Below are positions 2,662-61,335 of a DNA stretch of 64,000 nucleotides, piece after piece. The DNA is from Ignavibacteria bacterium UBA2373. Lineage in GTDB: Bacteria > Bacteroidota > Ignavibacteria > Kapaibacteriales > UBA961. The DNA lies in NCBI GenBank assembly GCA_002344005.1, contig DDTD01000046.1, forward strand, positions 66,403 to 130,402, given 5' to 3'. The notes under the pieces are model-generated. The model was not told the origin of the DNA. It was given only the letters and a program-made list of their open reading frames with translations, and did no database searches. The position numbers were made by a program, and so were the translations under genes. Numbering within the stretch: the first letter of the stretch is position 1; every line of letters begins with the position of its first letter.

Positions 2662-3936
2662 TCATTTCCATTGTTTTAAGGGTAAAAGCAGTCTTTCTAA
2701 GAGTCGTATATTTTCAGTAATTATTTCCACTTTCCCTTCCATATCTTGCTGAAAAGTAAGCGTTTTCCCATACGAAGTGGTCAATCCTTTATCTAAACTT
2801 ATGGTGGCAATATAAGCATTATCTTTTGCCGATAAAGACATAGTGCGTATGGTGCCGGCAACGGCTCCAAATTCCGTATAAGGATAATTATCGAATTTAA
2901 GTATCACAGGACTACCTATATGCACTTTACCTGCCCCATATTGTGGAACATTAACTTTACCTATAATCTCAATATTGGGAGGAATAACAGTAAAGACCTC
3001 ATCACCTTGATTTACTGACTGATTTTTACTCCACACTCGATAAAAAGAAATAGTTCCGTCAATAGGGCTGCGAAGCATATATTTTTTTTCCCAGAGTTCA
3101 ATAGCACTTTGTAAATTTTTATATGTTTCCCGCAAGCGAACTTCTGTAATATGAATTCTTTCTTGTCTTTGTTGTTCGGTTTCTTGTATATTCTTTTGTG
3201 CATCCACAACACGCATAGAATTATTGACAATATTTGCATCTAATGCATCAAGGGCATATTTTTTTTGCAGAAAATTACTTTCCGACAAAGCTAAATCTGC
3301 ATCAGAGATATGACCTTTTTGTCTGAGAACTTTATCATTATCCATTTTTCTTTCAGCAAGTTCCAAATCACGTTTCAACAATTCTTTTTGTTGCTTTAAT
3401 TTTTGCTCAACTGATTTAGCATAGGTAATTTGTTTTTCAATGGAGACAACACTTGCACTATTATATTCTGCGGAAGAATAAAAACGATAATCCGAAACAG
3501 CAAGTAAAAAATCGGAATATGCGGTTTGAACTTCACCCAGAGTAGAATATTCGGGAAAATACATATTTTCTGCAAGAATTGCTTTGGTTACTGATTGAGA
3601 AATAGAAGTTAATTGTTTCTTGATAATTGCAATTTTGATTGGATCGGCAGCGGTCTCAAGCAATGCAATCGGTTGACCTGCTTTGACCAAAGATGTGTCT
3701 TTGACATATAAATCCACAATACGTCCGGAAGCTTGTGCAATAATTTTAGCGGGCGGATCGGCTGATGTTAAACGACATTGAGCAATAACCACATCGGGAT
3801 AATGAATAAACCATGTTGCACCGATAATTATACACATAAAAATAAAAAGTGCAGCAATTCCCCACCGCATTGTCCATTGTGGCATTTGAGTGAGAATATC
3901 CTCAAACTCTTCACTGTGTTGAGTATGACGCGGCAT
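2662..3936 (-). CDS. HlyD-family membrane fusion/periplasmic adaptor protein (peptide exporter accessory)
   Basis: N-terminal TM segment, long coiled-coil middle region and C-terminal beta domain. Translationally coupled to the upstream C39-ABC transporter (3-nt gap). Confidence 0.75.
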   Translation of the reverse strand: MPRHTQHSEEFEDILTQMPQWTMRWGIAALFIFMCIIIGATWFIHYPDVVIAQCRLTSADPPAKIIAQASGRIVDLYVKDTSLVKAGQPIALLETAADPIKIAIIKKQLTSISQSVTKAILAENMYFPEYSTLGEVQTAYSDFLLAVSDYRFYSSAEYNSASVVSIEKQITYAKSVEQKLKQQKELLKRDLELAERKMDNDKVLRQKGHISDADLALSESNFLQKKYALDALDANIVNNSMRVVDAQKNIQETEQQRQERIHITEVRLRETYKNLQSAIELWEKKYMLRSPIDGTISFYRVWSKNQSVNQGDEVFTVIPPNIEIIGKVNVPQYGAGKVHIGSPVILKFDNYPYTEFGAVAGTIRTMSLSAKDNAYIATISLDKGLTTSYGKTLTFQQDMEGKVEIITENIRLLERLLLPLKQWK

Positions 3937-3938
3937 AA

Positions 3939-6128
3939 TTATGCTCCCAGTTCTAATTGATTTTTAACCAAAGAAAAATATGCGCCTCTTTGTGCAAGTA
4001 ATTGCTCATGGTTGCCCTGTTCAACAATTTTTCCATTATGTAAGACGACAATATTATCGGCATTTTTTACAGTACTCAAACGATGCGCTATAATCAATAC
4101 CGTTTTACCTTTGTATATAGTATTTAACTGCTCGACGATTGTTTTTTCATTCAAAGCATCTAAAGCACTTGTTGCTTCATCAAAAAATAAATAGTCGGGA
4201 TTTTTATATACTGCGCGGGCAATCAATAAACGTTGCTGTTGCCCTGTACTTAATCCTAAGCCCTCTTGCCCGATTTTGGTAGAATACCCTAAAGGCAAAC
4301 CTGTGATAAATTCTCGTATATTAGCCACTTTGACAGCATGCTCCAAGCGTTCGCGATCCAATTTTTCTTCACCGGGAGCAATATTGCGTGCTATGGTATC
4401 AGAAAAAATAAAACCGTCTTGCAACACGACACCACAAGCATCGCGCCATGAATGATGGGCTATAGATTGCAAATCAGTATCGCCAATGCTTATCGTTCCC
4501 GCCGTAGGTTCATAAAATTTTAACAATAATTTTAGCAATGTTGATTTACCGCTTCCACTGGTGCCCACAAGTGCAGTAATTTTTCCTTCAGGAATTGAAA
4601 ATGTCAATGAGTCTAATACGGCAGGGCTATGCGGACCTGTATAATGAAATGACAAATTATGTATATAAATTGACTTATCCTGTGGAACAACATTATATGG
4701 TAATAAATCGGGCTGTTCTTCATTCGGAGCTGCATGAATTTCTGCCATACGTTCAAGACTTAATCTGGCATCTTGCGATAAAAGAAAAAAGCCCAATAAT
4801 TGTTCCACTGGGCTATTAAGGACCCCAAGGATATAAGAAACCGACAGCATCATACCTATGGTCATATTCCCGTTCAGAACTTCATGAGCAGCAAGAAAAG
4901 TAATGACAATATTTTTTAACTCATTAATAAAGAGAATACCCGATTGTTGTTTTTGTGCTAAAGCCAATGCCTTTACATTAAGATGAAACATTTTTGCTTG
5001 CAAGCGTTCCCATTCCCATCTTTTTTGCATTTCAATATTATGCAATTTTATTTCTTGCACACCATGTATCAATTGAATCAAAGAATTTTGATTATCACTT
5101 AATTGCCTAAAACGTTTGTGATCTATGTCTGCCCTTTTTTTGAGAAATGCCAATATCCATAGAACCGAGAGCAGAGTTCCTGCAAAAAACACTATAAACA
5201 TTGTAGTGCTGTAAAGGAAAAACATTACACCGAAGACAAGTAAGGTAAAAAGAGAAAAAATAACAGAAATGGAAGATGAAGTGAGCAAGGTTTCAATGCG
5301 TTTATGATCTTGAATACGCTGCAGGATATCTCCTGTTTTCTTCGTTTCAAAAAATGAAATCGGCAAACGCATTATTTTTCTCAAAAAGTCGGCAATCAAC
5401 GAGATATTAATACGCGAACCAATATGCAATAAGATACGGCTACGTAAGAACTCAATGACAACCTTGCTTAAAAACAGGACAAGTTGCGATATCAGCACAA
5501 TAGTAACAAACTCAGTATTTCTTGTATTGATGCCAATATCCACCAAAGATTGTGTCAGCAAGGGGAAAATTATTCCTATCACACTTATGACAATAGCTCC
5601 TATAAGCAATTGTACAATGAATTGTTTGTAGGGTGCAATGTAGGTCGAAAGAAATGAGAATGCACTGCGTGAGTTTGTCACTTCATTTTCATCATCGGCA
5701 CGATGGAAGGAAGGCGTTGGTTCAAGGAGCAACACGATACCTTGTTGTTGTTCCGGCGGCAACCATCCCTTCAAAAATTCTGCTGAAGAATAGCGTATAA
5801 TACCATGTGCAGGATCGGCAACAGTGACTTTATTTTTTTCTACCTTAATGACAATCACAAAGTGTCTTTGTTCCCAAAATACAATGAGAGGAGTTGTTAA
5901 TGTGCGGAGAGTACCAAAATCCGATTTAGCAGCATGGGTGCGAAAGCCAATACTTTCTGCTGCATTGCTCAGCCCTAACAAAGAAACCCCTATGCGCGAG
6001 ATGTGAGTACGTTCACGCAATGTTTGCATGGTAAATGTTTTGCCATGATACTTGGCAATCATGCGTAAGCATGCCGCGCCGCAATCTTCTGCATCATGCT
6101 GTTTATATATTGGAAACCTTGAAAACAT
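3939..6128 (-). CDS. Peptidase C39 domain-containing ABC transporter (bacteriocin/peptide-processing exporter, ATP-binding/permease)
   Basis: The N-terminus has the C39 catalytic cysteine context QHDAEDCGAACLRM. There are six TM helices and an ABC domain with Walker A GTSGSGKST, signature LSTGQQQRLLIARA and Walker B FFDEATSALD. Confidence 0.85.
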   Translation of the reverse strand: MFSRFPIYKQHDAEDCGAACLRMIAKYHGKTFTMQTLRERTHISRIGVSLLGLSNAAESIGFRTHAAKSDFGTLRTLTTPLIVFWEQRHFVIVIKVEKNKVTVADPAHGIIRYSSAEFLKGWLPPEQQQGIVLLLEPTPSFHRADDENEVTNSRSAFSFLSTYIAPYKQFIVQLLIGAIVISVIGIIFPLLTQSLVDIGINTRNTEFVTIVLISQLVLFLSKVVIEFLRSRILLHIGSRINISLIADFLRKIMRLPISFFETKKTGDILQRIQDHKRIETLLTSSSISVIFSLFTLLVFGVMFFLYSTTMFIVFFAGTLLSVLWILAFLKKRADIDHKRFRQLSDNQNSLIQLIHGVQEIKLHNIEMQKRWEWERLQAKMFHLNVKALALAQKQQSGILFINELKNIVITFLAAHEVLNGNMTIGMMLSVSYILGVLNSPVEQLLGFFLLSQDARLSLERMAEIHAAPNEEQPDLLPYNVVPQDKSIYIHNLSFHYTGPHSPAVLDSLTFSIPEGKITALVGTSGSGKSTLLKLLLKFYEPTAGTISIGDTDLQSIAHHSWRDACGVVLQDGFIFSDTIARNIAPGEEKLDRERLEHAVKVANIREFITGLPLGYSTKIGQEGLGLSTGQQQRLLIARAVYKNPDYLFFDEATSALDALNEKTIVEQLNTIYKGKTVLIIAHRLSTVKNADNIVVLHNGKIVEQGNHEQLLAQRGAYFSLVKNQLELGA

Positions 6129-6282: not shown

Positions 6283-6320
6283 TAAAGAAAAAGGCGACTC
6301 ATTCATTTGTGGGTCGCCTT
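6283..6320 (-). terminator. Rho-independent terminator for the GAF/GGDEF gene
   Basis: Stem AAGGCGAC / GTCGCCTT (6291-6320) with a T-run on the minus strand (plus AAAGAAAAA at 6283-6291), directly downstream of the stop at 6353. Confidence 0.5.
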
Positions 6321-6352
6321 CATCAAAATTTTATACTATACGTGATGGTCAA

Positions 6353-8737
6353 TTAGTCAAAGACCGAAACCGTATTTGTTCTTTGCAAAGCCATGGAAAG
6401 AACTCTTTCAGTATTAGCATGGAGCGCGTCGGATGTTTCTCTGGCTCTTGCTTGTGAGACCCCGATGCACACAGTAACAGAAAAACGCTTGCCAAACATA
6501 TCTACAATAGAAATAGCAACTTCTTTGCGCATTTTCTCTGCCCAAAGATGAGCTTGCTGTGCTGTACGTCCGATAAGTAATACAGCCAGCATTCCTTCAT
6601 TCGATTCACCGACAACATCATAAGCATTAAGGTTACGCCTAAGAATTTCAACGACATGACATGTGAGATTTTCTATTGCATCTTGGCTCATTTCAGAAAT
6701 GATATAATGGTCAATTTGAACCAAACATAGTGATAAAGCAATATTGAAATCACCTGCACGGGCAATCTCTTCATCCATACGTTGCTGGAAAGCTGTTCTG
6801 TTAAGAATACCTTTTGTTCTATCCAACATAGCAGAATTATCGAACATTGCATTGAAACGTAATTGTTCAATCATTGTGCCTGCTTGTTCGCCAAGTAATT
6901 CCAAAATTGATATATCGTGGTGTGATATGAACGAGTTACGCGCTTCAATGAAGAGTGTGCCATAACTATGAGAAAGTGATTTGAGCGGAACAGCAAGGAA
7001 ACTGCCTCCTTGAGCTTCGGGTTCAGCATCTGTGACACGAATCATTTCGGGTTCAAGTGGCGCTAAAAGTGTAGTAGATGCCGTCTGAATTGTTTTACCT
7101 ATGACAGAACGTTGCAAATCAACCGGTGTACCGCGAAGAACAATTGTTCTTTCATCCATTGGTCGTATTTCATTGACTATCCATTCATCACAATATTCAT
7201 CATAGAGGCATGTTCCAACCAATGTCGCATCAACCATTTCGGCAGCTGCTTGTATGATACTCGTACATACAGCTGATATGCCGGCAGTGTCGGCATTCGC
7301 CAAAAGATTGCGAAATTTACTTATCACCTCAAGAGCCCTATTTGCTTGAAGTAAATCATACTTACCAGTATAACTTTGTACTAATCCGCTGATAAGTTTG
7401 GTAAAATGACCAAAGAAACTTACTGTAATGGCATCATAAGCGTCAGGTTCTTCAGAGTCAGCACAGAGGACACCTACCACAGTATCATGATAATACACGG
7501 GAACACCAATAAATGACACTGTTTTTGAAGGAGTATGATAATATGGTATCAGATCTAATTCAGCCGAGGATTTAATCTCGGTCAATATTTCAGGTCTTCC
7601 ACCCTGAGCTACTTGGCTAATGACATCACCGGAGAATTTGAACTTTCTTTCTTCGGATATGCTATCTTTAATGTCAGAGATAAATGCTTCTAATACAAGA
7701 TGTTGCTTATCTGCATTAACCCAGAAAAATGCGGCTGTCCTTGCATTTGTCACCGAACGAATAACCATAAGAACACGATTCAGCAAAAAATCAAGCTCTT
7801 TGCGCGGCTCATTGTGTGGAACAAGAGGTGTCTCGTCAGATAAATCTAATTTATCAACATCAATTGTATGACGTTTTGCTGGTCTTTGATTTTCATTATC
7901 TTTTTTGTTTTCAACAACTTCAACAGATTCATTTGAAGTTGGTACATTATGGGTATTGCTTTCAGCAGAAAAATCCTGCGCAACTCTTTCTCCTGTATCA
8001 ACCGTCATATCAGAGTAGGTTTGTTGCTGTGATGATTCTGTGCTGCTTGTATGTTCAACTTGCGGCTCATCGGACGGAGATTTGTGTTCTTCCGTCTTTT
8101 GTTGATATTGTACTACTGGTTCTGTAACAATTTCTACTGCACGGTGAGCGACTTGCTTCTGTACTTCCGGAGATGGTTTCGGTTTTGGAGGCATTGGCGG
8201 AGGTACCTCTCTGCGTTGTGTTGGTTTTGGTGTTGAAGACTTTGCCTTCCCAACGATACGAACATGGGAAATATCATCGCCGAAGTGACGCACACCACTT
8301 TGCTTTGAAGGTCCGTCAGATTCTTTTTTGGGAAGCTCATCGGTAAACTTCGAAGCGACTTTTTTGCGAACTTCTTCTTCAGGATTGTTTTCCGGTATTT
8401 CATCCGGTACATCATCATCACCAAAGGATTTTTTGAAATCGCTGTCATCAAAAATAATTCGGCGACTGCCATTGCCACTTTTTTCTACAGTACGTAATGA
8501 CACATTGGCACTCACAGGTTTACGCGAGTATTCCACTGTTTCGCTCAAACGCTGTGATATCATCATAAAATGTCCGACTCCACCAAGAATCGAAACACAG
8601 ATACCGATAAGCCGAATAGGCAATTCGGGCAAAAAGAGAGCAATACACAAGCCTCCGATAATCGCCAGAAGAGCAAAAACCTCTGTGGCGTTAGCCGGCG
8701 TGATTATTTTTTTCACGTCAATGCTACGATTAACCAT
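6353..8737 (-). CDS. Membrane-anchored signalling protein: 2 TM, long Pro/Glu/Lys-rich disordered linker, tandem GAF domains, C-terminal degenerate GGDEF-like domain
   Basis: Hydrophobic N-terminus, low-complexity region (PPPMPPKPKPSPEVQKQ...), GAF-like segments and a C-terminal GGDEF-like fold (LNRTAFQQRMDEE...SVTVCIGVS...ALQRTNTV). GESNEG replaces the catalytic GG(D/E)EF. Confidence 0.55.
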   Translation of the reverse strand: MVNRSIDVKKIITPANATEVFALLAIIGGLCIALFLPELPIRLIGICVSILGGVGHFMMISQRLSETVEYSRKPVSANVSLRTVEKSGNGSRRIIFDDSDFKKSFGDDDVPDEIPENNPEEEVRKKVASKFTDELPKKESDGPSKQSGVRHFGDDISHVRIVGKAKSSTPKPTQRREVPPPMPPKPKPSPEVQKQVAHRAVEIVTEPVVQYQQKTEEHKSPSDEPQVEHTSSTESSQQQTYSDMTVDTGERVAQDFSAESNTHNVPTSNESVEVVENKKDNENQRPAKRHTIDVDKLDLSDETPLVPHNEPRKELDFLLNRVLMVIRSVTNARTAAFFWVNADKQHLVLEAFISDIKDSISEERKFKFSGDVISQVAQGGRPEILTEIKSSAELDLIPYYHTPSKTVSFIGVPVYYHDTVVGVLCADSEEPDAYDAITVSFFGHFTKLISGLVQSYTGKYDLLQANRALEVISKFRNLLANADTAGISAVCTSIIQAAAEMVDATLVGTCLYDEYCDEWIVNEIRPMDERTIVLRGTPVDLQRSVIGKTIQTASTTLLAPLEPEMIRVTDAEPEAQGGSFLAVPLKSLSHSYGTLFIEARNSFISHHDISILELLGEQAGTMIEQLRFNAMFDNSAMLDRTKGILNRTAFQQRMDEEIARAGDFNIALSLCLVQIDHYIISEMSQDAIENLTCHVVEILRRNLNAYDVVGESNEGMLAVLLIGRTAQQAHLWAEKMRKEVAISIVDMFGKRFSVTVCIGVSQARARETSDALHANTERVLSMALQRTNTVSVFD

Positions 8738-11043: not shown

Positions 11044-12432
11044 TTACATATTCGGTCCGAGCATATCTTCCGGTCTTACCCATTCATCAAATTGCTCGGC
11101 AGTCAAAAGTCCCAATGCTAATGCAGCTTCTTTAAGAGTCGTATTATTTTTATGGGCATATTTGGCAATTTTTGCTGCATTATCATAGCCTATATGTGTA
11201 TTGAGTGCTGTCACTAACATAAGCGTGTTTTGATTGTAATACTCCAATTTATCCACAACCGGTTCAATACCAACGGCACAATGTTCATTGAACATAATGC
11301 AAGCATCCGCAAGCAATCGCACGCTTTGTAAATAATTATAAATCATCACGGGTTTAAACACATTTAACTCAAAATTACCCTGCGATCCGGCAAAATTGAT
11401 TGTAGCATCATTACCCATTACTTGAGCAACGACCATTGTCATTGCTTCTGATTGTGTTGGATTCACTTTACCGGGCATAATGGAAGAACCGGGCTCATTT
11501 TCGGGAATGGTAATTTCTCCAAGACCACAGCGTGGACCGGATGCCATCCAACGAATATCATTGGCAATTTTCATCAATGAAGCAGCCAAAGTCTTGATAG
11601 CTCCGTGAGCAAATACGATTGCATCGTGGGCAGCTAGGGCTTCAAATTTATTTGGCGCAGTGATAAACGGAATACCTGTCAGCTCCGCAATTTTTGCTGC
11701 TCCCCTTACTGCAAATTCGGGATGAGTATTCAACCCCGTACCCACTGCTGTACCGCCAAGTGCAAGTTCCAACAATCCGCCGAGAACCAAGTTAATTCTT
11801 TGTATATCATTCGTCAATTGCTGAACATAACCCGAGAATTCTTGCCCCAAAGAAATTGGTGTGGCATCCATAAGATGCGTACGACCACTTTTTATATACG
11901 AAGCAAAATCTTTCGATTTTTGTGCTAATGTGTCTCGCAACTGTACAACAGCAGGTAATAGGTGATGGAGAGTTTGCTCAGCTGCAGCAATGTGCATGGC
12001 GGTAGGAAATGTATCATTCGAGCTTTGGCTTTTGTTCACATCATCATTAGGGTGAACAGGCTTTTTCGACCCCATTTCTCCTCCGGCTATCTCTATTGCT
12101 CTATTGGAAATAACTTCATTCGTATTCATATTGGTTTGCGTACCCGAGCCTGTTTGCCATATCGAAAGCGGGAAATGAGCATCCAGCGTACCGGCAATAA
12201 CTTCATCTGCAGCTTGCGCTATACGCTGCGCTTTCTCATCCGACAAAAGTCCTAACTCATTATTGACAAGGGCAGCAGCTTTCTTCAATATTCCCAAAGC
12301 GCGTATCAGTTCACGAGGCATACGCTCATTACCTATTGCAAAATGGATAAGAGACCGAGCTGTTTGAGCACCATAGTATTGATTGGAAGGAACTTCGATA
12401 CTTCCCATTGAATCTGTTTCTATTCTAAACAT
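11044..12432 (-). CDS. fumC: Fumarate hydratase class II
   Basis: Lyase-1 signature [35 protein letters not shown]-terminus [15 protein letters not shown]; 462 aa. The TQSEAMTM context after the signature favours FumC over AspA. Confidence 0.8.
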
Positions 12433-12787
12433 CGTGTTATGATAAAAATGGTTGATGAATGATTATTTGCAAAATTACGGAAGACTGAGGAATAACTTCT
12501 ACGTACTTTCAAACACCACACAAACACAATAAAAATTAAGCTTTTACTACAAAAACGCTTCAAAACCCACTTTTTAAGATAAGTTTTACACAAAAACGAA
12601 ATAAAATTTGCATCTTTTGAAGAAATTTTGTAAGTTTGAAATGAAGAAGGAGAAAGTAAAACACTAATTTTAATAGTGCTTAACAATCTTTCAGGGTTTA
12701 GATTCGGCATACTTAGTTTGAAAAAGACAAAGATACTTACACCCACTTGGGTTTTTTTATTCACATTTTCATTAGAAAGGGACTTCG

Positions 12788-12952
12788 ATGAAACGCGAAT
12801 TCCAAACTTTAACAGCTGCTGAAATGACAGCAATCGTCGGTGGTACAACTGCGACAATCGTTGAAACAAGTTCACCTGATGCACCGGGCATCTATGATTT
12901 ATATATGGATTGGGGCTGGAGATCAGATCCCGTTGATCCTTCTAAAAAATAA
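12788..12952 (+). CDS. Double-glycine (GG) leader peptide precursor, 54 aa: leader MKREFQTLTAAEMTAIVGG plus 35-aa Cys-free acidic Trp-containing core
   Basis: Not in the ORF track (<60 aa). ATG at 12788 follows an AAAGGGA RBS. The leader matches the GG-leader consensus at every key position (F-15, L-12, E-8, M-7, I-4, G-2, G-1). The gene has its own downstream terminator. The matching C39-ABC/HlyD exporter lies at 2.7-6.1 kb. Confidence 0.65.
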   Translation: MKREFQTLTAAEMTAIVGGTTATIVETSSPDAPGIYDLYMDWGWRSDPVDPSKK

Positions 12953-12971
12953 TCATAACAAAACAAAAAAA

Positions 12972-13000
12972 CCTCATTGAAAACAATGAGGTTTTTTTTT
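12972..13000 (+). terminator. Rho-independent terminator of the GG-peptide gene
   Basis: Stem CCTCATTG / CAATGAGG with loop AAAA, followed by a T9 run. Confidence 0.7.
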
Positions 13001-13032: not shown

Positions 13033-13066
13033 AAAAAAAAACCTCTGCCGACATAGTCAACAGAGG
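13033..13066 (-). terminator. Rho-independent terminator for rpsU
   Basis: Stem CCTCTG / CAGAGG preceded on the plus strand by an A9 run (T-run on the minus strand), just downstream of the rpsU stop. Confidence 0.55.
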
Positions 13067-13093
13067 TATAAGCAAACGCAATGAATCGAGGAA

Positions 13094-13288
13094 CTATTCT
13101 TGTTCCATTGTTGCACGATGCTGGCGACGAACCGCTTTCATGTGCGACATACGCTTTTCAATAGATGGCTTTAAATAATACGTACGTTTTTTGTACTCAC
13201 GAAGTACGCCGCTGCGTTCGTACTTTTTTTTGAACCGACGAAGAGCGCGGTCAATGTTTTCATTCGATTGAATTGTCACACCTATCAT
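13094..13288 (-). CDS. rpsU: 30S ribosomal protein S21
   Basis: 64 aa, basic; matches S21 throughout (VTIQSNENIDRALRRFKKK...MKAVRRQHR). Confidence 0.9.
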   Translation of the reverse strand: MIGVTIQSNENIDRALRRFKKKYERSGVLREYKKRTYYLKPSIEKRMSHMKAVRRQHRATMEQE

Positions 13289-13321: not shown

Positions 13322-13729
13322 TTAAATTGTTAGCTTTTCAATGAGTCGTTTCTCTTTATTTTTTTCAAACTGAACTATAATCGCCTGCGCTCCGTTTGAA
13401 GTCATATCTTTGCCGGTAATAATACCGATATCGTCCCACATTTTGTGATAGATAATCTCACCAACCTGATACTCATCTCTCGGACTATATGGTATAGAGT
13501 CATCTTTAGATATTGGCACAATAACTGCCGATTTATCTTGTCGTGCTTCTAAAGCGTCCAAATCAATCATTTGGGAGTGTCTGCTCACCGTGCATCGTGC
13601 CCATTGACGGCGATTACCGGTTTCAGTCACCATCGGCTCACCAATGAGTTCATGCTTGGTTTCTCGCATTAAAAACGGCGAGTATAATTTGAGATACTTG
13701 ACCTTTTTTGCGCGTCGAACACGTGCCAT
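13322..13729 (-). CDS. Hypothetical protein (135 aa, basic N-terminus)
   Basis: Clean ORF between rpsU and the ccp terminator; no recognisable motif. Confidence 0.4.
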   Translation of the reverse strand: MARVRRAKKVKYLKLYSPFLMRETKHELIGEPMVTETGNRRQWARCTVSRHSQMIDLDALEARQDKSAVIVPISKDDSIPYSPRDEYQVGEIIYHKMWDDIGIITGKDMTSNGAQAIIVQFEKNKEKRLIEKLTI

Positions 13730-13779: not shown

Positions 13780-13821
13780 CAAAAATACAAAAAAATAGTC
13801 TTTCAGCAATTCTTAAAGACT
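13780..13821 (-). terminator. Rho-independent terminator downstream of the cytochrome c peroxidase gene
   Basis: Stem AGTCTTT / AAAGACT preceded on the plus strand by an A-rich run (13780-13796), which is a T-run on the minus strand. Confidence 0.5.
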
Positions 13822-28890: not shown

Positions 28891-30216
28891 TTATCGTTTA
28901 AGCTGATTGATTTCACCAAGGAACTGGTCACTTATAGTCACTGTACGCGATGCGGCTTCAAAAGCTCTTTGCGTAGTGATAAGATCGGTAAACTGTTCGG
29001 TCAAATCAACATTAGACTCTTCCAATGCGGTTGAGTTTATACGGGTGGAAGGGAAAATTTCCACAGCCGTTCCCACTGTGGGCAATCCACTATTAGGAGA
29101 TATGGAGAAGAAGTTACCGCCTTCTTTCATCAATCCGCCCGGATTGGTAAAGCGTGCAAGCACTACTTGACCCAATAGCTCTGACTGACCATTGGTAAAT
29201 GCTCCAAGTATCTTACCTGTCTGATCAACCGAAATTCTTGAAAGTTCACCGGAAGTATATCCATCTTGTTCGCGAGCTGTTACTGTATTCAAACCGGCGA
29301 ACTGAGTTAAACCGCCTAATAAATTATCGGGCGTGGCTAAAGTTATAGTCACATCCTTGGGTGTATCCTGATCAAATGCATTCGATGTACTGACAGCATT
29401 TAATGCACTTGCGGCTAAAGTAAAGTTTAATGGAGTTTGAAGTGTACCGTCAGAATTAAAATTGATGGATGTGGGTGCTCCGGCAATAGGTGTAGAATTA
29501 CCATCCATTGTCGCCACTAAACCAAAGGTGTTTGGAGCAGTTTTCGTGAAAGCTAAATTCAAAACGCGAGGCGCACCCTGCGTATCATAAATAGTGATAC
29601 TTGTATTAAACTCATCGCCTGTATTTGCATCACCACGTAAATTACCTGTAATCTGTACACTTTGAGTTTGGCGCGGTGCAGATTTAAATGTTGGCGATAT
29701 TTGTACATTTGTTACTTTACGATTTAATTGATTGGTGCCACTTGAATCTTTCAACACACGACCTGAACTATCTGTTTCAAGATTATAGCCCTGCACATAA
29801 GAGCCGGAAGAACTATCCACAAGATTACCACGGGAATCTAAGGAGAATGCTCCTGCACGTGAATATAATGTTTGACCATTTTGCTTAAACACAAAAAGTC
29901 CATCGCCTTGCAAAGCCAAATCAAGTGCACGAGTTGTATTTTGTATAGATCCTTGATTTAAATCTAATTTAATTGCACCGAGGCGAACGCCTAAACCAAT
30001 TTGAACCGGATCGCCACCACCGATACCGCCCGCGGCTATATTACTTGGTGAAGAACCTGAACCAAATGTTTGTGAAAATTGCTCGGCAAATGTTGTGCGG
30101 CTTCCTTTAAACCCTATAGTATTAACATTTGCGATATTATTAGAAATAACATCAAGACGTTGTTGATGCGCACGCAGGGAACTTGTGCCTGCCGATAAAG
30201 AACGAATAAGTGCCAT
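28891..30216 (-). CDS. flgE: Flagellar hook protein FlgE
   Basis: N-terminus MALIRSLSAGTSSLRAHQQRLDVISNNIANVNTIGFK and C-terminus ...RAFEAASRTVTISDQFLGEINQLKR are canonical rod/hook-family termini; 442 aa from the ATG at 30216. That ATG follows a GGAGGT RBS; the ORF track extends it 11 codons upstream. Confidence 0.85.
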   Translation of the reverse strand: MALIRSLSAGTSSLRAHQQRLDVISNNIANVNTIGFKGSRTTFAEQFSQTFGSGSSPSNIAAGGIGGGDPVQIGLGVRLGAIKLDLNQGSIQNTTRALDLALQGDGLFVFKQNGQTLYSRAGAFSLDSRGNLVDSSSGSYVQGYNLETDSSGRVLKDSSGTNQLNRKVTNVQISPTFKSAPRQTQSVQITGNLRGDANTGDEFNTSITIYDTQGAPRVLNLAFTKTAPNTFGLVATMDGNSTPIAGAPTSINFNSDGTLQTPLNFTLAASALNAVSTSNAFDQDTPKDVTITLATPDNLLGGLTQFAGLNTVTAREQDGYTSGELSRISVDQTGKILGAFTNGQSELLGQVVLARFTNPGGLMKEGGNFFSISPNSGLPTVGTAVEIFPSTRINSTALEESNVDLTEQFTDLITTQRAFEAASRTVTISDQFLGEINQLKR

Positions 30217-30335
30217 AATGAATGACCTCCAATAAGAAAAAAAATATTTCAAAAAAACATCAAATCATCAGTCAGTCAGATTTGATTTGGAGGGATTTCC
30301 TGCCATAGCAATGGCGAGGTCCTATCCCTGATTAT

Positions 30336-31473: not shown

Positions 31474-34400
31474 TTATCGCTGTGATTGAAAAATTCTATT
31501 AAATGCACTGGTAGTATAATTTACCGTTGTTTGTGATTTTCGTGCATCGGCAGCATATTTAAACGATCGAGTAAATTGTTGACGACTCTCTTGTTCTTGC
31601 TGCGATTGACCTTGGCGATTATGCGAAGAATATTGTGAATTATGGGACATTTCTTCCTCTTTTTTTCGCACAGTCACTTCCACGCTATCAAGTTGCATGC
31701 CTTGTTTACCAAATTGATCTTTTAATTGAGGAAGCTGTGACTCAATTATCTGTTTCGTTTGCTGTGAATCAACTTGTATTTGTAATTGTGTATCAGAATT
31801 TAAAGTGGAATATCGCACAATGACTGTACCTAACTCTTCAGGTTGCAATACCATACGTACTGTTCCATTTCCTTGTGTTTTTGAGGAAATATATTCATGA
31901 GCCTTATCCGCAAAATGCTGTACCGGTAATAATTCCATTATTTCCATAGATGCAACCTTTTTTATAGTAGGTATGCCGACTTTTTGGACTGGCTGAATAT
32001 GAACATTGTGAGGAATAATGATAGAATCTTGAGAAGGGAAATTACTATTTTCAGTCAAGACAAAATTTTGAGAACTATCTGCTACTCCTAAAGATTGATT
32101 TGAGATTGGTGATAATGTCGTTTGTATTTCATTTTCTACATCAATATTATCACTTTTTGACTTAATACTTGAGTTTTGCTGCAATAGATTGCTTTGATTA
32201 TTAATATTATTCGTTATCTCCCCTCTTGGTACTACTCGCTCAGAAGTAGAGGTAATGAACATATTATTAAAAGTATTGTTTTTTTCTACATTCTGATTCG
32301 CAACTGCATTTTTTAACGAAGAACGATAGTGTGATAATTCTTTTTTGAGTAAACTATTATCTTGGTTTGTTGAATTTTGTTGAGTTAGATTTTCGGACTT
32401 TTTAATTATACCATCATTAAAAACGACTGTTTTTTCATATTCAACAAAAGACAAACCTTTCTTTACTTCAGATTTTTTTTCTACCTCACCGGATATTTGC
32501 TTAGAAACAAAACTTCTTTGTATTTTTTCCGAACCATCGTTTGTTTCCAACGAATTCAAAACGTTCATTTTAACTTCATTGGGAATAGTCTCGACTGATT
32601 TTTCAAGGTGGATCTTTTTTGTATTTCGAGAATCAACTTGAGTGTTCTGTATTATAGCGTCAGATGGAGAAGTAGCACTATCATTATAGCGAATCTTAAA
32701 GACAATATTTTTAACCGGAACACCGACTGACGACGCCTTTTCAATAATGGAATGAAGTGCCATTACCGTATTCGGAATAACTTGATGAGAAGTTTGTATA
32801 TCAGAAGGTGGAGTTACAACAATTGCTGAATTATCATGGGTTTTGTTCTTTAAGACATAGAGTGCACCATCGCTGGTTTGTAATGGCTCATGAACAGTAC
32901 GATCAAAAGCCGAAGTATTAAGTATTTTCACAGCTTTAGAATCAGTATCATCATTGATTGTTAATTCTTCATCATTCTCAATAACTTCCTGTTCATCTAA
33001 GTTCTCCGGAACAATTGATTCATAGGTATTCTTTAGTGTATGAACTAATATTGTATCTGTCGGTTGTATAATTGATTTTGATTTGTCATCATTTTGTTTA
33101 ATAGTATGTTGATTGGTTTTCGATGCAATACTTACATTGTCATCAATTCTACTATCCGTTCTTTCTGTAAAAGGAATATTTGACAAAGTGTTAAGTTGTA
33201 TATTCTCCTTGGTTTTTTTACTGAGATTATGTACACCTTTATTTTTCAAAGATTCCTGTTTAGATAAAGATACTATTTGTGGACTATTGTCATTTTTCAC
33301 CATTACATTGTCATCAACAATACCAGCATCACCATTAAATGTATCATTTTTTGAAACTTGATAAACATTGTTATCTAATTGAGTTGATTTTTTTATCTCA
33401 GTAACAACATTCTCTTTCGAGGACAATGCAACAGTATTAGTTTCTTGACTTTTACCTATAGTAACTCGATCATAAGTAAGCGACTCCGAAGATGTCACGG
33501 TAGCATTTAACTTGTTGTCATTTATAACAGCATTGTCTTCAGCTTCCGTAAGAATCGCATTATTATGAGTATTTGTTGTATTATGAGTAATAGTATTTTT
33601 CGATTTTTGATTAAGTTCTGTCAATAAAGTACTATTACTTTTATCACTGTACAGTAATCCGGCATCAGTTTCTTGTACTTCGTCAACGACAGGTTTAGGC
33701 GGAACCTTATATATTACCTCTGATTTGAAAACTTTATCGTGTTTGACAGTATCTAAGTTATTATCTGAAAATGTATTCTTTTTCTGATTCTGATGTACTT
33801 TCGGTGTATTTCCTACAGCATTCGATTCTCCCTTAGATGCACTACTTTCAACTGAATTAAGATTATTGATAGTTTTTAATAAAATTGCTTCTTCTTCTGG
33901 AGAATATTCAACAGACGGAATATCACGCTTTTTAAATTTCATATTGTTGTCATCTGAATCAAAAACACCATAATCAGATGTATTTTTCACAGTCGAATCA
34001 TCGTTTGAGATAATGTCAGAAATTAATTTTATATCCTGCTTGGAAGTATTTCGAGTACCATTATCAATTGATTCATGAATTATTTGCTCAGTAGATGTAT
34101 TATTTACAACACTATTATAGACCGAGTCTTTTTTAGTCTTATTTACAACAATATTATTGACATTGTTTAAGCCAATATCTTTTAGGCTAATGCTATAAGA
34201 ATCATTATTTTCTAAAGCAGATATCTGCTCAGAATAAACCATATGATTATTTGACTTTTTTTTGTCTGATAAAACATTTAATTCATTTACAGTGCTATTT
34301 TCTTTATAATTTAAGGTATCTGATGAATGTACTTTTTGTTGTCCGTCTATATCATAGTCTTTTAATCTATTACGGGACAGCCTGTCAACAGTATATCCTT

Positions 34401-37400
34401 GCACAGTCTGATTTTTATTCTCTTTTGTATGAAGATCTGAAATATTACTTTCATGCGGTGATCTATACATGATATTATCACTCGAATCAACAGATATTTC
34501 TTCTTGAGAATTGTCTAATATAAGATTTACACGATGTTCTGAACTGTTTTTCTCACCACCGTCTGCTGTCTGACGTGCACCTACTTTATCCGATATAACT
34601 GCGTTTGTAGCAGATTTCACTTTTGCAAATGATAATCTTTCTAATGGTTTTGCACTTTTTTCTTGTATTCCTGATGTTGCTTTGGATTTACTATTACCTT
34701 TCAACAACTCAATTTCTGAACGAACTGTAACAGATTTAGCGGAAAAATCTAATTTCGCCGATGATTCCTCCGAAGAATTATCTATGACAATACTGTGTTC
34801 AGTAAGATTTTTCTTATCACCGTCTGTCTGATGTACACCCAATTTATCAGATGTATCGTTTTCTAATTTTGCAAATAATGATTTCTCTAATGGTTTTGTA
34901 CTTTGTTCTTGTATTCCTGCTACTACTTTGGATTTACTATTACCTTCCAATGACTCAATTTCTGAACGAACAATAACAGATTTAGCGGAAAAATCTAATT
35001 TCGCCGATGATTCCTCCGAAGAATTACCTGTTACAAGAGCAACATTACTTTCTGAAAGATTTTTCTCACCACCATCTGTCTGATGTACACTCAATTTATC
35101 AAATGTATCGTTTTCTGATTTTGTAAATGATGATTTCTCTAATGGTTTTGTACTTTGTTCTTGTATTCGTGCTACTGCTTTGGATTTACTATTACCTTCC
35201 ATTGACTCAATTTCTGAACGAACAATAACAGATTTAGCGGAAAAATCTAATTTCGCCGATAATTCTTCCGAAGAATTATCTGTTACAAGAGCAACATTAT
35301 GTTCTGAAAGATTTTTCTCACCACCGTCTGCTTGATTTACTCCTAAATTATTAGTAAAAACTTCGATTATTTCTTTATCGTCAATAGATTTTGTACTTGA
35401 TGTTTTATGAGTAAACGTATTTGCATACGTTTTAGAGTTATCTCTAGTACTTTCAATAGGAATAGAATTCTCAGTATTGCTTCCGTTTGTGATTTCTTTT
35501 ATTGATTCAGAAAAGAAATGTCCGGATGTTTTTTGAATTATCTTTTCAATACTTCTTTCTGATTCTTCGACATCAATAGTACGATTTGATTGTTTTGATT
35601 TTATTGAAGAAAATTTATCATAATCGCTTTCATTATATTCCGTACCTGTATGTATTTCTACGTTTTCACCTGTTCTTAATACATCTTGAAAAGAAATTTT
35701 GGAGTTTTTTGCATTACCTTGATCTATTGTCTGATCAATAATAGAGTCTTTAGCATATTGCCTAACAGTTTGCTGTTGTTCTAGCGAAATGCTCTTTGCA
35801 ACAAGATTTTTCTCATTATGTTCATTTTGTGATGTTTCACTATATGTTATTTTTTGATTGTTTGCTTGTTGAGATGTATCTGGCATTGACATGACTTTAG
35901 ATTCAGGTCTTTTTTCCTCATTTTGATTATATGATAGATGATTTTCAATCTGAGGATGGTTTATATCCGCGTCAATATCATCATTATAAATATTGTTTTG
36001 CGATGATTTTATTGTTTGAATGATTGAGGTCTTAGTACGGATAGTGCTGTTTTCAATATTTACTGATTTATCATCTTCCTTCAATGTATTCACATACATT
36101 CCTATAGCAGGTGCTTTTTCAGATGATAGTATTTTTGATGTCGTATTTTCAAATTGTGCCACTGTGTTTACTTCATTATTAGTCTTCTTCACTCCGGCAT
36201 TCTTAATTTTTGCTTCTGCATCACTATTATATGCGATGATATTTTCTCTATCGTTCTGACTTTTCAATTCAGACTTATCATGAATAAGCTGTTCATTGAC
36301 TATGTCTGTTTTTTCCAATGTATTTCTCGAATTGCTTGAATTGTTGTATTTATTTGCATTCGATATCGGTTGAAATTTTTCTGTTAATTGTGCATGCTTT
36401 TCATTATTTCTATGAAACTCAAGACTATTTTCTTCAGGAAATAATTTTTCAATGTATTCTTCAATAGCAGCATTCTGCAAACTCGGATCTACCGTTGTTA
36501 TTGATATTGATTTCCTTGTATTTTTATTATCTATATTATCTGTATTGGAATTTTCATCTCCAACAGGCTGATTAATTTTGTTTTGTTGTTCATCACCTAT
36601 ATTATCTAAATTGGAATTTTCATTTCCAACAAGTTGGTTAATCTTGTTTTGTGATATATATGTGTCTTTAGCTCGACTTTTATTTACTACATTTTCTTGC
36701 AATGAATCACTCCCATGATAACTCATTGCTTTATCTTTATACGGGAATGTATTATTCTTTACGGCTTTGTCTGATTCACTATTATTTACATTTTGTTGAG
36801 ACTGCAGGACTCCACCTTTGATAGTATCATTATAAAACCTCATTGGTATATTCTGTTCTTCATTTGTACCATTTTGAAGCGGTAATGATGTATTTGATGC
36901 TTTATTTGACCCTTGAGGTAGATTTAAGTTCTTATTAGCAGTTATACTTTCATTTGTCGAAGTTATTGTATCAGGATTTGATATAGACTCAGCATGATTA
37001 TTTAGATTTACGACTTTAGTATGCTGTGGAAGTACAGTTTTCTCTTGTAAACCATTATTAACCGGTTTATGATATACTGATCCAAATACTTGTTCAAAGC
37101 TTACTTCCGTATTTTGATTGTTGTACTTTACAGTCACTTGATCTTTACTAAAGGAACTCTCCAACGGTTGTGATTTTTGTTGCATGGGTATCCATAAATT
37201 TTGGATTACCATATCAATAATGTGCGGTATTTCCTCCTGTGATGTTGTCGAAATATCAACACGTACTTGAATATCCTCATTATGTGAGGAAAGTAAATTG
37301 ATTTGAACTTTACTTTTATTGTGCACCTTCATTGAATCACTAAAATCTCGTATCATGGATTCAATTTCTGAAGATTTTTCCTTATTTTTCGATTGTGTAT

Positions 37401-61145: not shown

Positions 61146-61335
61146 AAGCGCGCCAAAAGCGTCCGCAAAATTAAGAACTTTTTTAGAAATGACAAAATCT
61201 GTTGCAACTTTTTTAGGAGTTTCAATAAAATATTAAGAAATTTTTGCCCAAAGTGTTCCTTTTTTTGCGCAATCCTTCTATATTTGCGTTTATGGCAAAG
61301 CATTGTGTGTCAACAAAGTTATAATTAGGTGGTAA

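What the first reader, a model, noticed from the sequence alone, without database searches (positions are those of the whole stretch)
12788..12952. Unannotated double-glycine-leader peptide gene (54 aa) with its own promoter region and terminator
MKREFQTLTAAEMTAIVGG matches the GG-leader consensus at all conserved positions (F-15, L-12, E-8, M-7, I-4, GG). The predicted 35-aa core TTATIVETSSPDAPGIYDLYMDWGWRSDPVDPSKK is acidic, Cys-free and Trp-rich. That composition is atypical for class II bacteriocins and more reminiscent of secreted signalling peptides. The gene is flanked by a strong rho-independent terminator at 12972-13000 and lies in the divergent intergenic region shared with fumC. An upstream hairpin plus T7 run at 12742-12762 could act as an attenuator.
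Basis: partly seen in the sequence, partly recalled or inferred. Interest (0 to 1): 0.65.

Follow-up and report, generated by a model that had tools for sequence, protein, structure and literature searches.

The report
Conserved double-glycine-leader exported peptide gene
A real, evolutionarily conserved 54-residue gene in a Kapaibacterium genome encodes a peptide with a textbook double-glycine export leader. It is most likely cut and exported by a peptidase-ABC transporter 6.7 kb away, so it is a new family within a well-known kind of system, and its function is still unknown.

Summary
The ORF at 12788-12952 (+) exists and reads as described. It is a genuine protein-coding gene. In six diverged Kapaibacterium-type loci it always lies between fumC and rpsU. 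dN/dS is 0.04 for the 19-residue leader and 0.03 for an invariant motif, GIYDLYMDWGWR. It is about 0.6 for the Thr-rich linker and the tail, and all indels are in frame.

The leader meets every consensus position of double-glycine leaders. The transporter at 3939-6128 has the catalytic Cys/His/Asp of the C39 peptidase of PCAT1, with an HlyD-type adaptor gene beside it. Its orthologues occur in the same samples as the divergent peptides, although on other contigs.

The family is confined to this clade. No modifying enzyme or immunity gene is adjacent. An identical protein is already annotated as "hypothetical protein" in NCBI metagenome-assembled genomes, so it is uncharacterised rather than unpredicted.

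The terminator is strong. The proposed "attenuator" hairpin is weak.

Some relatives carry an upstream paralogue that has the same core motif but no GG leader.

Most likely this is a PCAT-exported, unmodified, anionic peptide with a role other than killing competitors. That role is inferred, not shown. I rate it a new member of a known kind, of moderate interest.

The parts
12788..12952 (+). Prepeptide gene: 54 codons plus TAA. MKREFQTLTAAEMTAIVGG | TTATIVETSSPDAPGIYDLYMDWGWRSDPVDPSKK
   Evidence: sequence. Homologues P0001-P0005 at 68-100% identity. Same position between fumC and rpsU in all related loci. Overall pN/pS of 0.27.
12788..12844 (+). Double-glycine leader (residues 1-19). Predicted cleavage after G19.
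   Evidence: All consensus positions present (PMC6959990 and PMC7018657). Invariant except R3H and A10P across the six loci, with pN/pS of 0.039. AlphaFold2 predicts a helix only at residues 10-17, which are positions -10 to -3. TIGR01847 scores 12.7 bits, below its cut-off of 15.7.
12845..12886 (+). Thr/Ser/Pro-rich variable linker at the start of the mature peptide (residues 20-33)
   Evidence: In-frame indels and pN/pS of 0.57. The Pro-Asp at residues 30-31 inside it is invariant.
12887..12922 (+). Invariant core motif GIYDLYMDWGWR (residues 34-45), presumed to be the functional determinant
   Evidence: Identical in all homologues although synonymous sites differ at pS = 0.60, with pN/pS of 0.029. 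A related motif, FDLYSDWGWRNEK, occurs in the leaderless upstream paralogue of L009, L010, L002 and L011.
12923..12949 (+). Variable C-terminal tail (SDPVDPSKK here; S/TEKPGTGK in the other clade)
   Evidence: pN/pS of 0.59.
12773..12787 (+). Invariant translation-initiation region TAGAAAGGGACTTCG (in-frame stop followed by a purine-rich, SD-like AAAGGG)
   Evidence: Invariant in all six aligned loci. Its function as a ribosome-binding site is inferred.
12742..12758 (+).
   Evidence: The ACCCAnTnGGG sequence is conserved in all loci, but the fold is weak (-4.5 to -5.9 kcal/mol, z of about 0). In L009 and L011 it starts 3 nt after the stop of the upstream paralogue. The T-run is present only in the window and L006.
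12603..12638 (+). Candidate promoter region. AAAATTTG at 12603-12610 has one mismatch to TAnnTTTG, and a TTTGC block is present in all loci. TAAGTTTG at 12631-12638 is an exact match and is conserved in L006 only.
   Evidence: TAnnTTTG is 3.3-fold enriched in intergenic DNA of this window and usually lies 35-90 nt upstream of start codons. Block conservation. Not demonstrated. The sigma-70 scan found nothing convincing here.
12965..13000 (.). Bidirectional intrinsic terminator (A7, 8-bp GC-containing stem, 4-nt loop, T9), starting 13 nt after the stop codon
   Evidence: -17.5 kcal/mol, z = -6.5. Every related locus has a strong terminator at the same place with a different sequence in the other clade (-26.1 and -18.6 kcal/mol).
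12470..12477 (-). TAATTTTG -7-type box of the divergent fumC gene, 38 nt upstream of its ATG. It bounds the shared intergenic region.
   Evidence: Lies inside an invariant block, CAAAATTACGGAA, in all six loci.
3939..6128 (-). Peptidase-containing ABC transporter (PCAT), the presumed leader peptidase and exporter
   Evidence: Pfam Peptidase_C39 3e-36, ABC_membrane and ABC_tran. NCBIfam hits all fall below the curated cut-offs. Its Q10, C16, H89 and D105 occupy, in the alignment to PCAT1 (4RY2), the positions of the conserved QxxxxxC, HF and ADP motifs that I take to be PCAT1's catalytic set. C21 and H99 are named in PMC6959990; the Gln and Asp are from my own knowledge. Orthologues at 74-89% identity, two of them in the same samples as the divergent peptides.
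2662..3936 (-). HlyD-family membrane-fusion (adaptor) protein. Its start lies 2 nt after the PCAT stop, so the two are probably co-transcribed.
   Evidence: Pfam HlyD_3 7e-16. TIGR01843 5.6e-37, below its cut-off. Adjacent to the PCAT in L006, L007, L012 and L013.

Best explanation
Proposed mechanism:
1. The ORF is a translated, vertically inherited small gene that encodes a double-glycine (GG) prepeptide.
2. Transcription probably starts from a Bacteroidota-type promoter about 150-180 nt upstream. It stops at the strong terminator directly after the gene.
3. The leader (residues 1-19) forms a short amphipathic helix covering positions -10 to -4. This helix docks on the C39 peptidase domain of the PCAT at 3939-6128.
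4. The PCAT cleaves after Gly19 and passes the cargo on. Export uses the HlyD adaptor (2662-3936) and an unidentified outer-membrane channel, and carries the cargo out of this diderm cell.
5. The product is a 35-residue, Cys-free, net-anionic linear peptide. Its active part is the invariant segment P-D-x-x-GIYDLYMDWGWR. The Thr-rich linker and the tail act as spacers.

Proposed role: the gene sits in the core genome, has no immunity gene, has no adjacent modifying enzyme, and is frozen in sequence across species. I therefore think it binds a conserved partner of the producer's own lineage, as an autocrine or intercellular cue or as a surface or matrix factor, and does not kill competitors.

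Shown: the gene is real and under selection; the leader consensus is met; the peptidase catalytic residues are present; the peptide and the transporter co-occur.
Inferred: cleavage, export, absence of modification, and the biological role.
For: - Sequence and start codon.
- Chance expectation of 0.05 such ORFs per window.
- Six diverged loci keep the gene between fumC and rpsU.
- pN/pS is 0.039 for the leader, 0.029 for the core, 0.57 for the linker and 0.59 for the tail. Indels are in frame.
- The leader matches the published consensus and the helix position.
- The PCAT has C39, TMD and NBD domains and aligns residue for residue with the PCAT1 catalytic residues. The adaptor gene is adjacent.
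- Orthologous GAF-PCAT-HlyD blocks occur in the same metagenomes as the divergent peptides: SRR20005815 (L011 and L012) and JGI 3300001199 (L010 and L013).
- It is the only GG-leader ORF in the 64-kb window and in all fetched loci, including those around the PCAT orthologues.
- The ten immediate neighbouring genes and ten further large ORFs of the window show no RiPP-type enzyme. The only radical-SAM hit is a UPF0004 methylthiotransferase-type protein about 39 kb away.
- Strong terminators are kept in all clades, with different sequences.
- There is a non-antibiotic precedent for GG peptides in a Gram-negative: EbfG1-4/PteB in Synechococcus (PMC4997328).
Against: - There are no expression, cleavage or secretion data.
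- TIGR01847 scores below its cut-off.
- Peptide and PCAT are not physically linked in the second clade, and the co-occurrence there rests on two samples.
- Whole genomes could not be scanned, so other PCATs, other GG peptides, an unlinked immunity gene or an unlinked modifying enzyme cannot be excluded.
- No outer-membrane partner and no receptor were identified.
- The leaderless paralogue shows that the core motif can be kept without an export signal. This leaves room for an intracellular function.
- The AlphaFold2 model has low confidence (pLDDT 58.6).
Confidence: 0.6

Rival explanations
1. It is a class II-microcin-like bacteriocin. The unmodified GG-leader toxin is exported by PCAT/MFP/TolC and kills related bacteria, and immunity is encoded elsewhere.
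For: GG leader, PCAT with catalytic triad and MFP are three of the five defining components of class II microcin systems (PMC9746304). The small size fits.
Against: None of the three nearest genes on either side is a small membrane protein. They are fumC, Sua5/TsaC, DapF, rpsU, a hydrophilic 135-residue protein and a cytochrome c peroxidase. The peptide is net anionic and Cys-free. The core is invariant across species and sits in a syntenic core-genome position. That pattern is unusual for bacteriocins, whose core sequences are described as highly variable.
Confidence: 0.15
2. It is a RiPP precursor. The invariant Tyr/Trp-rich motif is post-translationally modified (for example by cross-linking, sulfation or prenylation) by an enzyme encoded elsewhere, before PCAT export.
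For: The whole leader is invariant, not only the positions that contact the PCAT, as might be expected if a second protein also reads the leader. The core is rich in aromatic residues. The leaderless paralogue keeps the same motif.
Against: No modifying enzyme lies within 10 kb in any of the loci. The leaderless paralogue would not be recognised by a leader-dependent enzyme. No hit to any curated RiPP precursor family.
Confidence: 0.12
3. It is an intracellular small protein whose N-terminus only resembles a GG leader. It is neither cleaved nor exported, and the motif acts inside the cell.
For: A paralogue with the same motif but without GG exists and is itself under purifying selection: 0 non-synonymous against 5 synonymous changes in the motif between L009 and L011. 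No physical linkage to the PCAT in one clade. TIGR01847 is below its cut-off.
Against: All seven consensus positions are met and are invariant under saturated synonymous change. A chance match is rare. An otherwise substrate-less PCAT/MFP pair is conserved in the same clade.
Confidence: 0.08
4. It is a chance ORF in a non-coding or regulatory RNA region, or the real gene is the 154-codon ORF on the opposite strand (12420-12884).
For: The intergenic region is long (355 nt) and contains conserved blocks. The minus-strand ORF is longer.
Against: A codon-level selection signature and in-frame indels are seen on the plus strand. The longest stop-free minus-strand stretch falls to 57-100 codons in the relatives. 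No Rfam family is found there.
Confidence: 0.01

Closest known systems
Class II microcins of Enterobacterales (e.g. microcin V with CvaAB/TolC)
   Same: Gram-negative host. A small unmodified prepeptide with a 15-19-residue GG leader. Export by a C39-PCAT with catalytic triad plus an HlyD-type MFP (PMC9746304).
   Different: No adjacent immunity gene. An anionic, Cys-free core. A core-genome, syntenic, species-invariant locus separated from the transporter. No sequence similarity of the core to anything outside this clade.
EbfG1-4 / PteB of Synechococcus elongatus (GG-motif small secreted proteins needed for biofilm)
   Same: GG-motif peptides of a diderm bacterium, secreted with the help of a C39-peptidase transporter. 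They have a non-antibiotic role and mature parts without homologues elsewhere (PMC4997328).
   Different: The ebfG genes lie in a cluster next to pteB and encode 6-7 kDa mature proteins. Here a single 3.8-kDa-scale peptide is unlinked or loosely linked to the PCAT. No biofilm evidence exists here, only a conserved GAF/degenerate-GGDEF neighbour of the PCAT.
Gram-positive GG pheromones (CSP/ComC with ComAB; BlpC with BlpAB)
   Same: GG leader with hydrophobic residues at -4/-7/-12/-15. Cleavage and export by a PCAT. A short linear unmodified signal (PMC7018657). The C39 domain here aligns with ComA structures.
   Different: Those genes sit beside a histidine kinase and response regulator and diversify into pherotypes. 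Here no receptor is linked and the core is invariant. The host is diderm and needs an MFP and an outer-membrane channel.
Bacteroidetocins (GG-leader peptide toxins of Bacteroidetes)
   Same: Same superphylum (FCB group) and same leader type (PMC6671954, abstract).
   Different: [quoted passage not shown] No similarity to them or to any other family was detected for this peptide.

Membership tests
Double-glycine (GG) leader peptides / PCAT substrates | G(-2)G(-1) cleavage motif, with L/hydrophobic at -12, E at -8 and L/hydrophobic at -7 (PMC6959990), and hydrophobic residues at -4 and -15 (PMC7018657) | tested here: met
   F5(-15), L8(-12), E12(-8), M13(-7), I16(-4), G18, G19. Invariant in all homologues. 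Chance expectation of 0.05 per window.
Double-glycine (GG) leader peptides / PCAT substrates | Score above the curated cut-off of the GG-leader HMM (TIGR01847 bacteriocin_sig) | tested here: not met
   12.7 bits against a cut-off of 15.7, E = 0.16. The model has only 15 positions, so the shortfall is small, but the threshold is not reached.
Double-glycine (GG) leader peptides / PCAT substrates | Short helix spanning about positions -10 to -4 of the leader | tested here: inconclusive
   AlphaFold2 predicts a helix at residues 10-17 (positions -10 to -3) and nothing else, but at low confidence (mean pLDDT 58.6; first 10-residue block 74).
Double-glycine (GG) leader peptides / PCAT substrates | A PCAT with catalytically competent C39 domain (Cys/His/Asp) in the same genome | tested here: met
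   The protein at 3939-6128 has C16, H89 and D105 (plus Q10) at the positions that align with the conserved catalytic motifs of PCAT1. Orthologues occur in the samples that hold the divergent peptides.
Double-glycine (GG) leader peptides / PCAT substrates | Actual cleavage after GG and PCAT-dependent secretion | not testable with these tools
   Needs an in vitro C39 assay or supernatant peptidomics.
Class II microcin system (five components, PMC9746304) | Cognate immunity protein close to the precursor gene, usually small and with transmembrane helices | tested here: not met
   The three nearest genes on each side are fumC, Sua5/TsaC and DapF, and rpsU, a hydrophilic 135-residue protein and a di-haem peroxidase. 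The same holds in all related loci.
Class II microcin system (five components, PMC9746304) | PCAT plus MFP | tested here: met
   They lie 6.7 kb away here and are unlinked in the other clade.
Class II microcin system (five components, PMC9746304) | TolC-type outer-membrane channel | not tested
   None was looked for systematically. Not all ORFs of the window were scanned.
Class II microcin system (five components, PMC9746304) | Antibacterial activity of the mature peptide | not testable with these tools
   Needs a bioassay.
RiPP precursor | A modifying enzyme (radical SAM/SPASM, LanM, YcaO, P450, sulfotransferase and the like) in the gene neighbourhood | tested here: not met
   None in the Pfam scans of 20 of the window's large ORFs or in the 10-kb flanks of related loci. 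Unlinked enzymes cannot be excluded.

The most novel reading that the evidence does not exclude
The peptide is a genus-wide, core-genome-encoded intercellular signal of a Bacteroidota-group bacterium. It carries a Trp-x-Trp motif and is exported by an otherwise substrate-less PCAT/HlyD pair that is kept next to a membrane GAF/degenerate-GGDEF protein. The leaderless upstream paralogue found in some species (same DLYxDWGWR motif, no export signal) acts as an intracellular mimic or antagonist of the signal. This would be a peptide-based communication system of a kind not described in this bacterial group, with a built-in cytoplasmic decoy.
Probability: 0.1. Interest if true: 0.7.

Novelty: new member of a known kind. 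Interest (0 to 1): 0.36.

Why it matters
GG-leader peptides of Gram-negative bacteria outside the Enterobacterales and cyanobacteria are almost entirely uncharacterised. Kapaibacteria have been little studied. Most bacteriocin-like GG peptides are variable and accessory. This one lies at a fixed core-genome position, and its 12-residue motif is frozen while synonymous sites are saturated. That pattern points to a conserved molecular partner. It gives a concrete, synthesisable 35-mer, or the 16-mer PDAPGIYDLYMDWGWR, for tests of signalling, biofilm or antagonism. It also gives a defined PCAT-substrate pair for tests of substrate selection by 'orphan' transporters. If it proves to be an ordinary microcin-like peptide, it is still a new sequence family, but of limited general interest.

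Tried and rejected
1. Relic of the upstream paralogue in the window. I first read window 12616-12741 as a decayed copy of the leaderless ORF seen in L009, L002 and L011 (note 2). Local alignment against shuffles does not support this: window 48 of 500, L006 291 of 500 and L003 500 of 500 shuffles score at least as well, and a global test gave 34 of 300. The claim is withdrawn. Loss and later gain by tandem duplication cannot be told apart.

2. Remote homologues. A profile search of 1.84 billion representatives found only the family's own cluster plus one match to the leader alone (P0019). Pfam and NCBIfam gave nothing for the core.

3. Solved structures. The best hit is a Cys_rich_CPCC domain at E = 0.38. 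It lacks meaning here because the peptide has no Cys.

4. Structure prediction. Confidence is low and the core is predicted unstructured. No fold search was attempted, since it would be meaningless.

5. Rfam. No RNA family lies in the intergenic region.

6. Sigma-70 promoter scan. Counts are no better than in shuffles (4 found against 3.2 expected), and none lies upstream of the gene.

7. Opposite-strand 154-codon ORF. Not conserved.

8. Context of a 60%-identical PCAT in another Ignavibacteria MAG (L014). It has no GG peptide, no HlyD and no GAF neighbour, so it is uninformative.

9. Whole-genome census of GG peptides and PCATs.

Full report
**1. What is in the sequence**

Window 12788-12952 (+) is an ATG-initiated ORF of 54 codons. 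It encodes MKREFQTLTAAEMTAIVGGTTATIVETSSPDAPGIYDLYMDWGWRSDPVDPSKK.

- An in-frame TAG lies 12 nt upstream, so there is no alternative start.
- A purine-rich AAAGGG lies 6 nt before the ATG.
- The gene is divergent to fumC (11044-12432, minus strand) and convergent with rpsU (13094-13288, minus strand).
- An A7-stem-loop-T9 hairpin starts 13 nt after the stop codon. It folds at -17.5 kcal/mol, with z = -6.5 against shuffles.
- A separate terminator at 13041-13067 (minus strand) serves rpsU.

Counted back from Gly19, the leader has F-15, L-12, E-8, M-7, I-4, G-2 and G-1. The published consensus is L(-12)xxxE(-8)L(-7)xxxxG(-2)G(-1), with hydrophobic residues at -4, -7, -12 and -15 (PMC6959990 and PMC7018657).

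A strict pattern for such ORFs occurs once in the window. Composition-matched simulated windows give 0.05 per window. A looser pattern finds no other credible GG-leader ORF in the 64 kb.

The curated 15-position model TIGR01847 matches residues 5-19, but at 12.7 bits, below its 15.7-bit cut-off. Pfam finds nothing.

**2. Is it a gene?**

Yes. The identical protein occurs on 114 contigs in public data. NCBI annotates it as "hypothetical protein" in Candidatus Kapaibacterium and Ignavibacteria MAGs. An exact DNA match lies in Ca. Kapaibacterium sp. UWPOB_KAPA1. NCBI taxonomy places the genus in Bacteroidota (FCB group), family Kapaibacteriaceae. The gene is therefore uncharacterised, not unpredicted.

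Four further 90%-identity clusters exist, at 68-81% identity. In every locus recovered the gene sits between fumC and rpsU. It is flanked by the same housekeeping genes: Sua5/TsaC on one side, and a 135-residue protein, a di-haem peroxidase and ThyX on the other. Across these loci FumC is 92-94% identical, ThyX 84-91% and Sua5 72-82%.

Codon-level comparison of six loci:

| Segment | pS | pN | pN/pS |
|---|---|---|---|
| Leader | 0.39 | 0.015 | 0.039 |
| GIYDLYMDWGWR | 0.60 | 0.018 | 0.029 |
| Thr-rich linker | – | – | 0.57 |
| Tail | – | – | 0.59 |

All length differences (54-59 residues) are in-frame indels inside the linker. The 154-codon ORF on the opposite strand is not preserved in the relatives, where the longest open stretch is 57-100 codons. 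No Rfam family matches the region.

**3. Anatomy of the peptide**

- The leader is invariant apart from R3H and A10P.
- A variable T/S/P/A linker follows and ends in an invariant Pro-Asp.
- The invariant motif GIYDLYMDWGWR comes next.
- A clade-specific tail closes the peptide: SDPVDP(S/N/A)KK or (S/T)EKPGTGK.

The predicted mature 35-mer has six acidic and three basic residues, no Cys and two Trp. AlphaFold2 on the five-sequence alignment has low confidence (pLDDT 58.6). It predicts only a helix at residues 10-17, the segment that forms the docking helix in PCAT1 and LahT substrates.

A profile search of 1.84 billion representative proteins finds only this family plus one protein that matches through the leader alone. 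No solved structure is related; the best E-value is 0.38.

**4. The export machinery**

The protein at 3939-6128 (minus strand) has Peptidase_C39, ABC_membrane and ABC_tran domains. Its N-terminal domain aligns over 142 residues with the peptidase domain of PCAT1 and ComA. In that alignment Q10, C16, H89 and D105 occupy the positions of the conserved QxxxxxC, HF and ADP motifs. I take these motifs to be the PCAT1 catalytic set. C21 and H99 are named in PMC6959990; the Gln and Asp are from my own knowledge. It is therefore a true peptidase and not a C39-like domain.

An HlyD-family adaptor gene follows 2 nt downstream.

Orthologues of this PCAT exist at 89% and at 74-76% identity. The next homologues drop to 60%. 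The two 75-76% orthologues I looked up come from the same samples as the divergent peptides:
- SRR20005815, with peptide locus L011 and PCAT locus L012.
- JGI 3300001199, with peptide locus L010 and PCAT locus L013.

Both lie in the same block, DapF-RuvC-GAF protein-PCAT-HlyD.

In the window and in the P0002 lineage this block abuts Sua5-fumC, which puts the transporter 6.7 kb from the peptide. In the other clade the two lie on different contigs. No GG-leader ORF lies beside the PCAT in any locus. Peptide and transporter thus co-occur in the clade, and each lacks another visible partner. Whole genomes could not be scanned.

**5. Regulatory surroundings**

The Bacteroidota-type -7 motif TAnnTTTG is 3.3-fold enriched in intergenic DNA of the window. 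It usually lies 35-90 nt before start codons.

- fumC has an invariant TAATTTTG 38 nt upstream.
- The peptide gene has two candidates. AAAATTTG at 12603-12610 has one mismatch and lies in a TTTGC block present in all loci. TAAGTTTG at 12631-12638 is an exact match but is shared only with L006. Either implies a 5' UTR of about 150-180 nt. This is inference. The sigma-70 scan is uninformative.

The last 50 nt before the ATG are nearly invariant.

- The hairpin folds at only -4.5 to -5.9 kcal/mol, no better than shuffles.
- Its T-run exists only in the window/L006 lineage.
- Attenuation is therefore not supported. A role in RNA processing or stability, or as a weak terminator, remains possible.

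**6. An unexpected paralogue**

In L009, L010, L002 and L011 a 47-50-codon ORF lies directly upstream on the same strand. In L009 and L011 it ends 3 nt before the hairpin. It encodes MKDFVNDISEKPKEHNQTSIIEVSNCSESLRTFDLYSDWGWRNEKLKNNS.

- It shares the (F/Y)DLYxDWGWRxEK motif and the overall length with the GG peptide.
- It has no Gly-Gly, and a Pro lies where the leader helix would be.
- Between L009 and L011 its motif segment shows 5 synonymous and 0 non-synonymous changes. It is therefore a translated gene.

The window, L006 and L003 have no such ORF. My initial reading of a decayed relic did not survive shuffle tests. The paralogue shows that the motif, not the leader, is the conserved functional unit. 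It also shows that the motif can be kept in a product that probably stays in the cytoplasm.

**7. Interpretation**

The best-supported mechanism is the standard PCAT pathway:
1. The leader helix docks on the C39 domain.
2. The C39 domain cleaves after Gly19.
3. The cargo is exported through the PCAT, the HlyD adaptor and an unidentified outer-membrane channel.
4. A linear anionic 35-mer is released.

Five observations argue against a classical microcin or bacteriocin and against a locally encoded RiPP pathway:
- The locus is a fixed core-genome position.
- The core is invariant.
- No immunity-type neighbour is present.
- The net charge is negative.
- No nearby modifying enzyme is present (criteria from PMC9746304).

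I therefore favour a peptide that binds a conserved partner of the producer's own lineage, as a signal or as a surface or matrix factor. EbfG1-4/PteB of Synechococcus is a precedent for non-antibiotic GG peptides in diderm bacteria (PMC4997328). This functional part is inference.

The rivals are:
- a microcin with unlinked immunity;
- a RiPP with unlinked enzymes;
- a non-exported small protein;
- a chance ORF (effectively excluded).

**8. Novelty and score**

The kind of system, a GG-leader peptide with a PCAT and an MFP, is well known. This core family is new and confined to one genus-level clade. The peptide and the transporter are unusual in being conserved core-genome genes that are only loosely linked. 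I rate it a new member of a known kind, with interest about 0.36. The most novel reading not excluded is a peptide communication system with an intracellular leaderless mimic. I give that a probability of about 0.1.

Noticed in passing
L009:4490-4642, L010:1990-2142, L002:9791-9934, L011:9121-9273 (no counterpart in window 12616-12741): A 47-50-residue ORF lies directly upstream of the GG peptide in some relatives. It carries the same FDLYSDWGWRNEK core motif but has no double-glycine leader. It is under purifying selection: 0 non-synonymous against 5 synonymous changes in the motif between L009 and L011. It is absent from the window, L006 and L003, where no significant residual similarity was found.
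   Followed up: yes
window 6353-8737 (-); also L006:3560-5950, L012:5411-7798, L013:1395-3782: A 794-residue protein is conserved immediately upstream of the PCAT-HlyD pair throughout the clade. It has two N-terminal hydrophobic segments, a low-complexity region of about 250 residues, two GAF domains and a weak GGDEF domain. By eye, the GGDEF signature position seems to read ESNEG, so the domain looks degenerate. It has its own terminator-like hairpin at about 6300-6330. It could be a regulator or sensor linked to the export system.
   Followed up: partly
window, intergenic regions; e.g. 12470-12477 (-), 13780-13787 (-), 61279-61286 (+): The Bacteroidota-type -7 promoter motif TAnnTTTG, often followed by C, is 3.3-fold enriched in intergenic DNA. 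It typically lies 35-90 nt upstream of start codons. This suggests that this Kapaibacterium uses Bacteroidota-like promoters. The sigma-70 consensus scan is uninformative here.
   Followed up: partly
window 13322-13729 (-): A hydrophilic 135-residue protein has no Pfam or NCBIfam hit. It always lies between the di-haem peroxidase gene and rpsU, and it is 92-94% identical across the clade, as conserved as FumC. Function unknown.
   Followed up: no
P0019 (164 aa, from the representative library; no locus): A protein call contains three tandem copies of a GG-leader-like unit (E(L/M)QALTLAELEAIAGG), each followed by a short region containing NHNETVV. It looks like a read-through or fusion of tandem GG-peptide genes from an unrelated organism. 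It matches the query only through the leader.
   Followed up: no
window 12420-12884 (-): A 154-codon GTG-initiated ORF lies antisense to the peptide gene and overlaps the fumC start. It is not preserved in relatives (longest open stretch 57-100 codons), so it is a spurious ORF that an automatic caller might pick instead of the peptide.
   Followed up: yes
L014:8001-10187 (Ignavibacteria MAG GCA_016720145.1): The nearest PCAT homologue outside the clade (60% identity) also has no adjacent GG-leader ORF, no HlyD gene and no GAF neighbour. 'Orphan' PCATs may be common in this group.
   Followed up: partly
window 28891-30252 (-), 31474-37971 (-): A flagellar hook protein gene (FlgE domains) and an unexamined 2165-codon ORF lie further along the window.
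   Followed up: no
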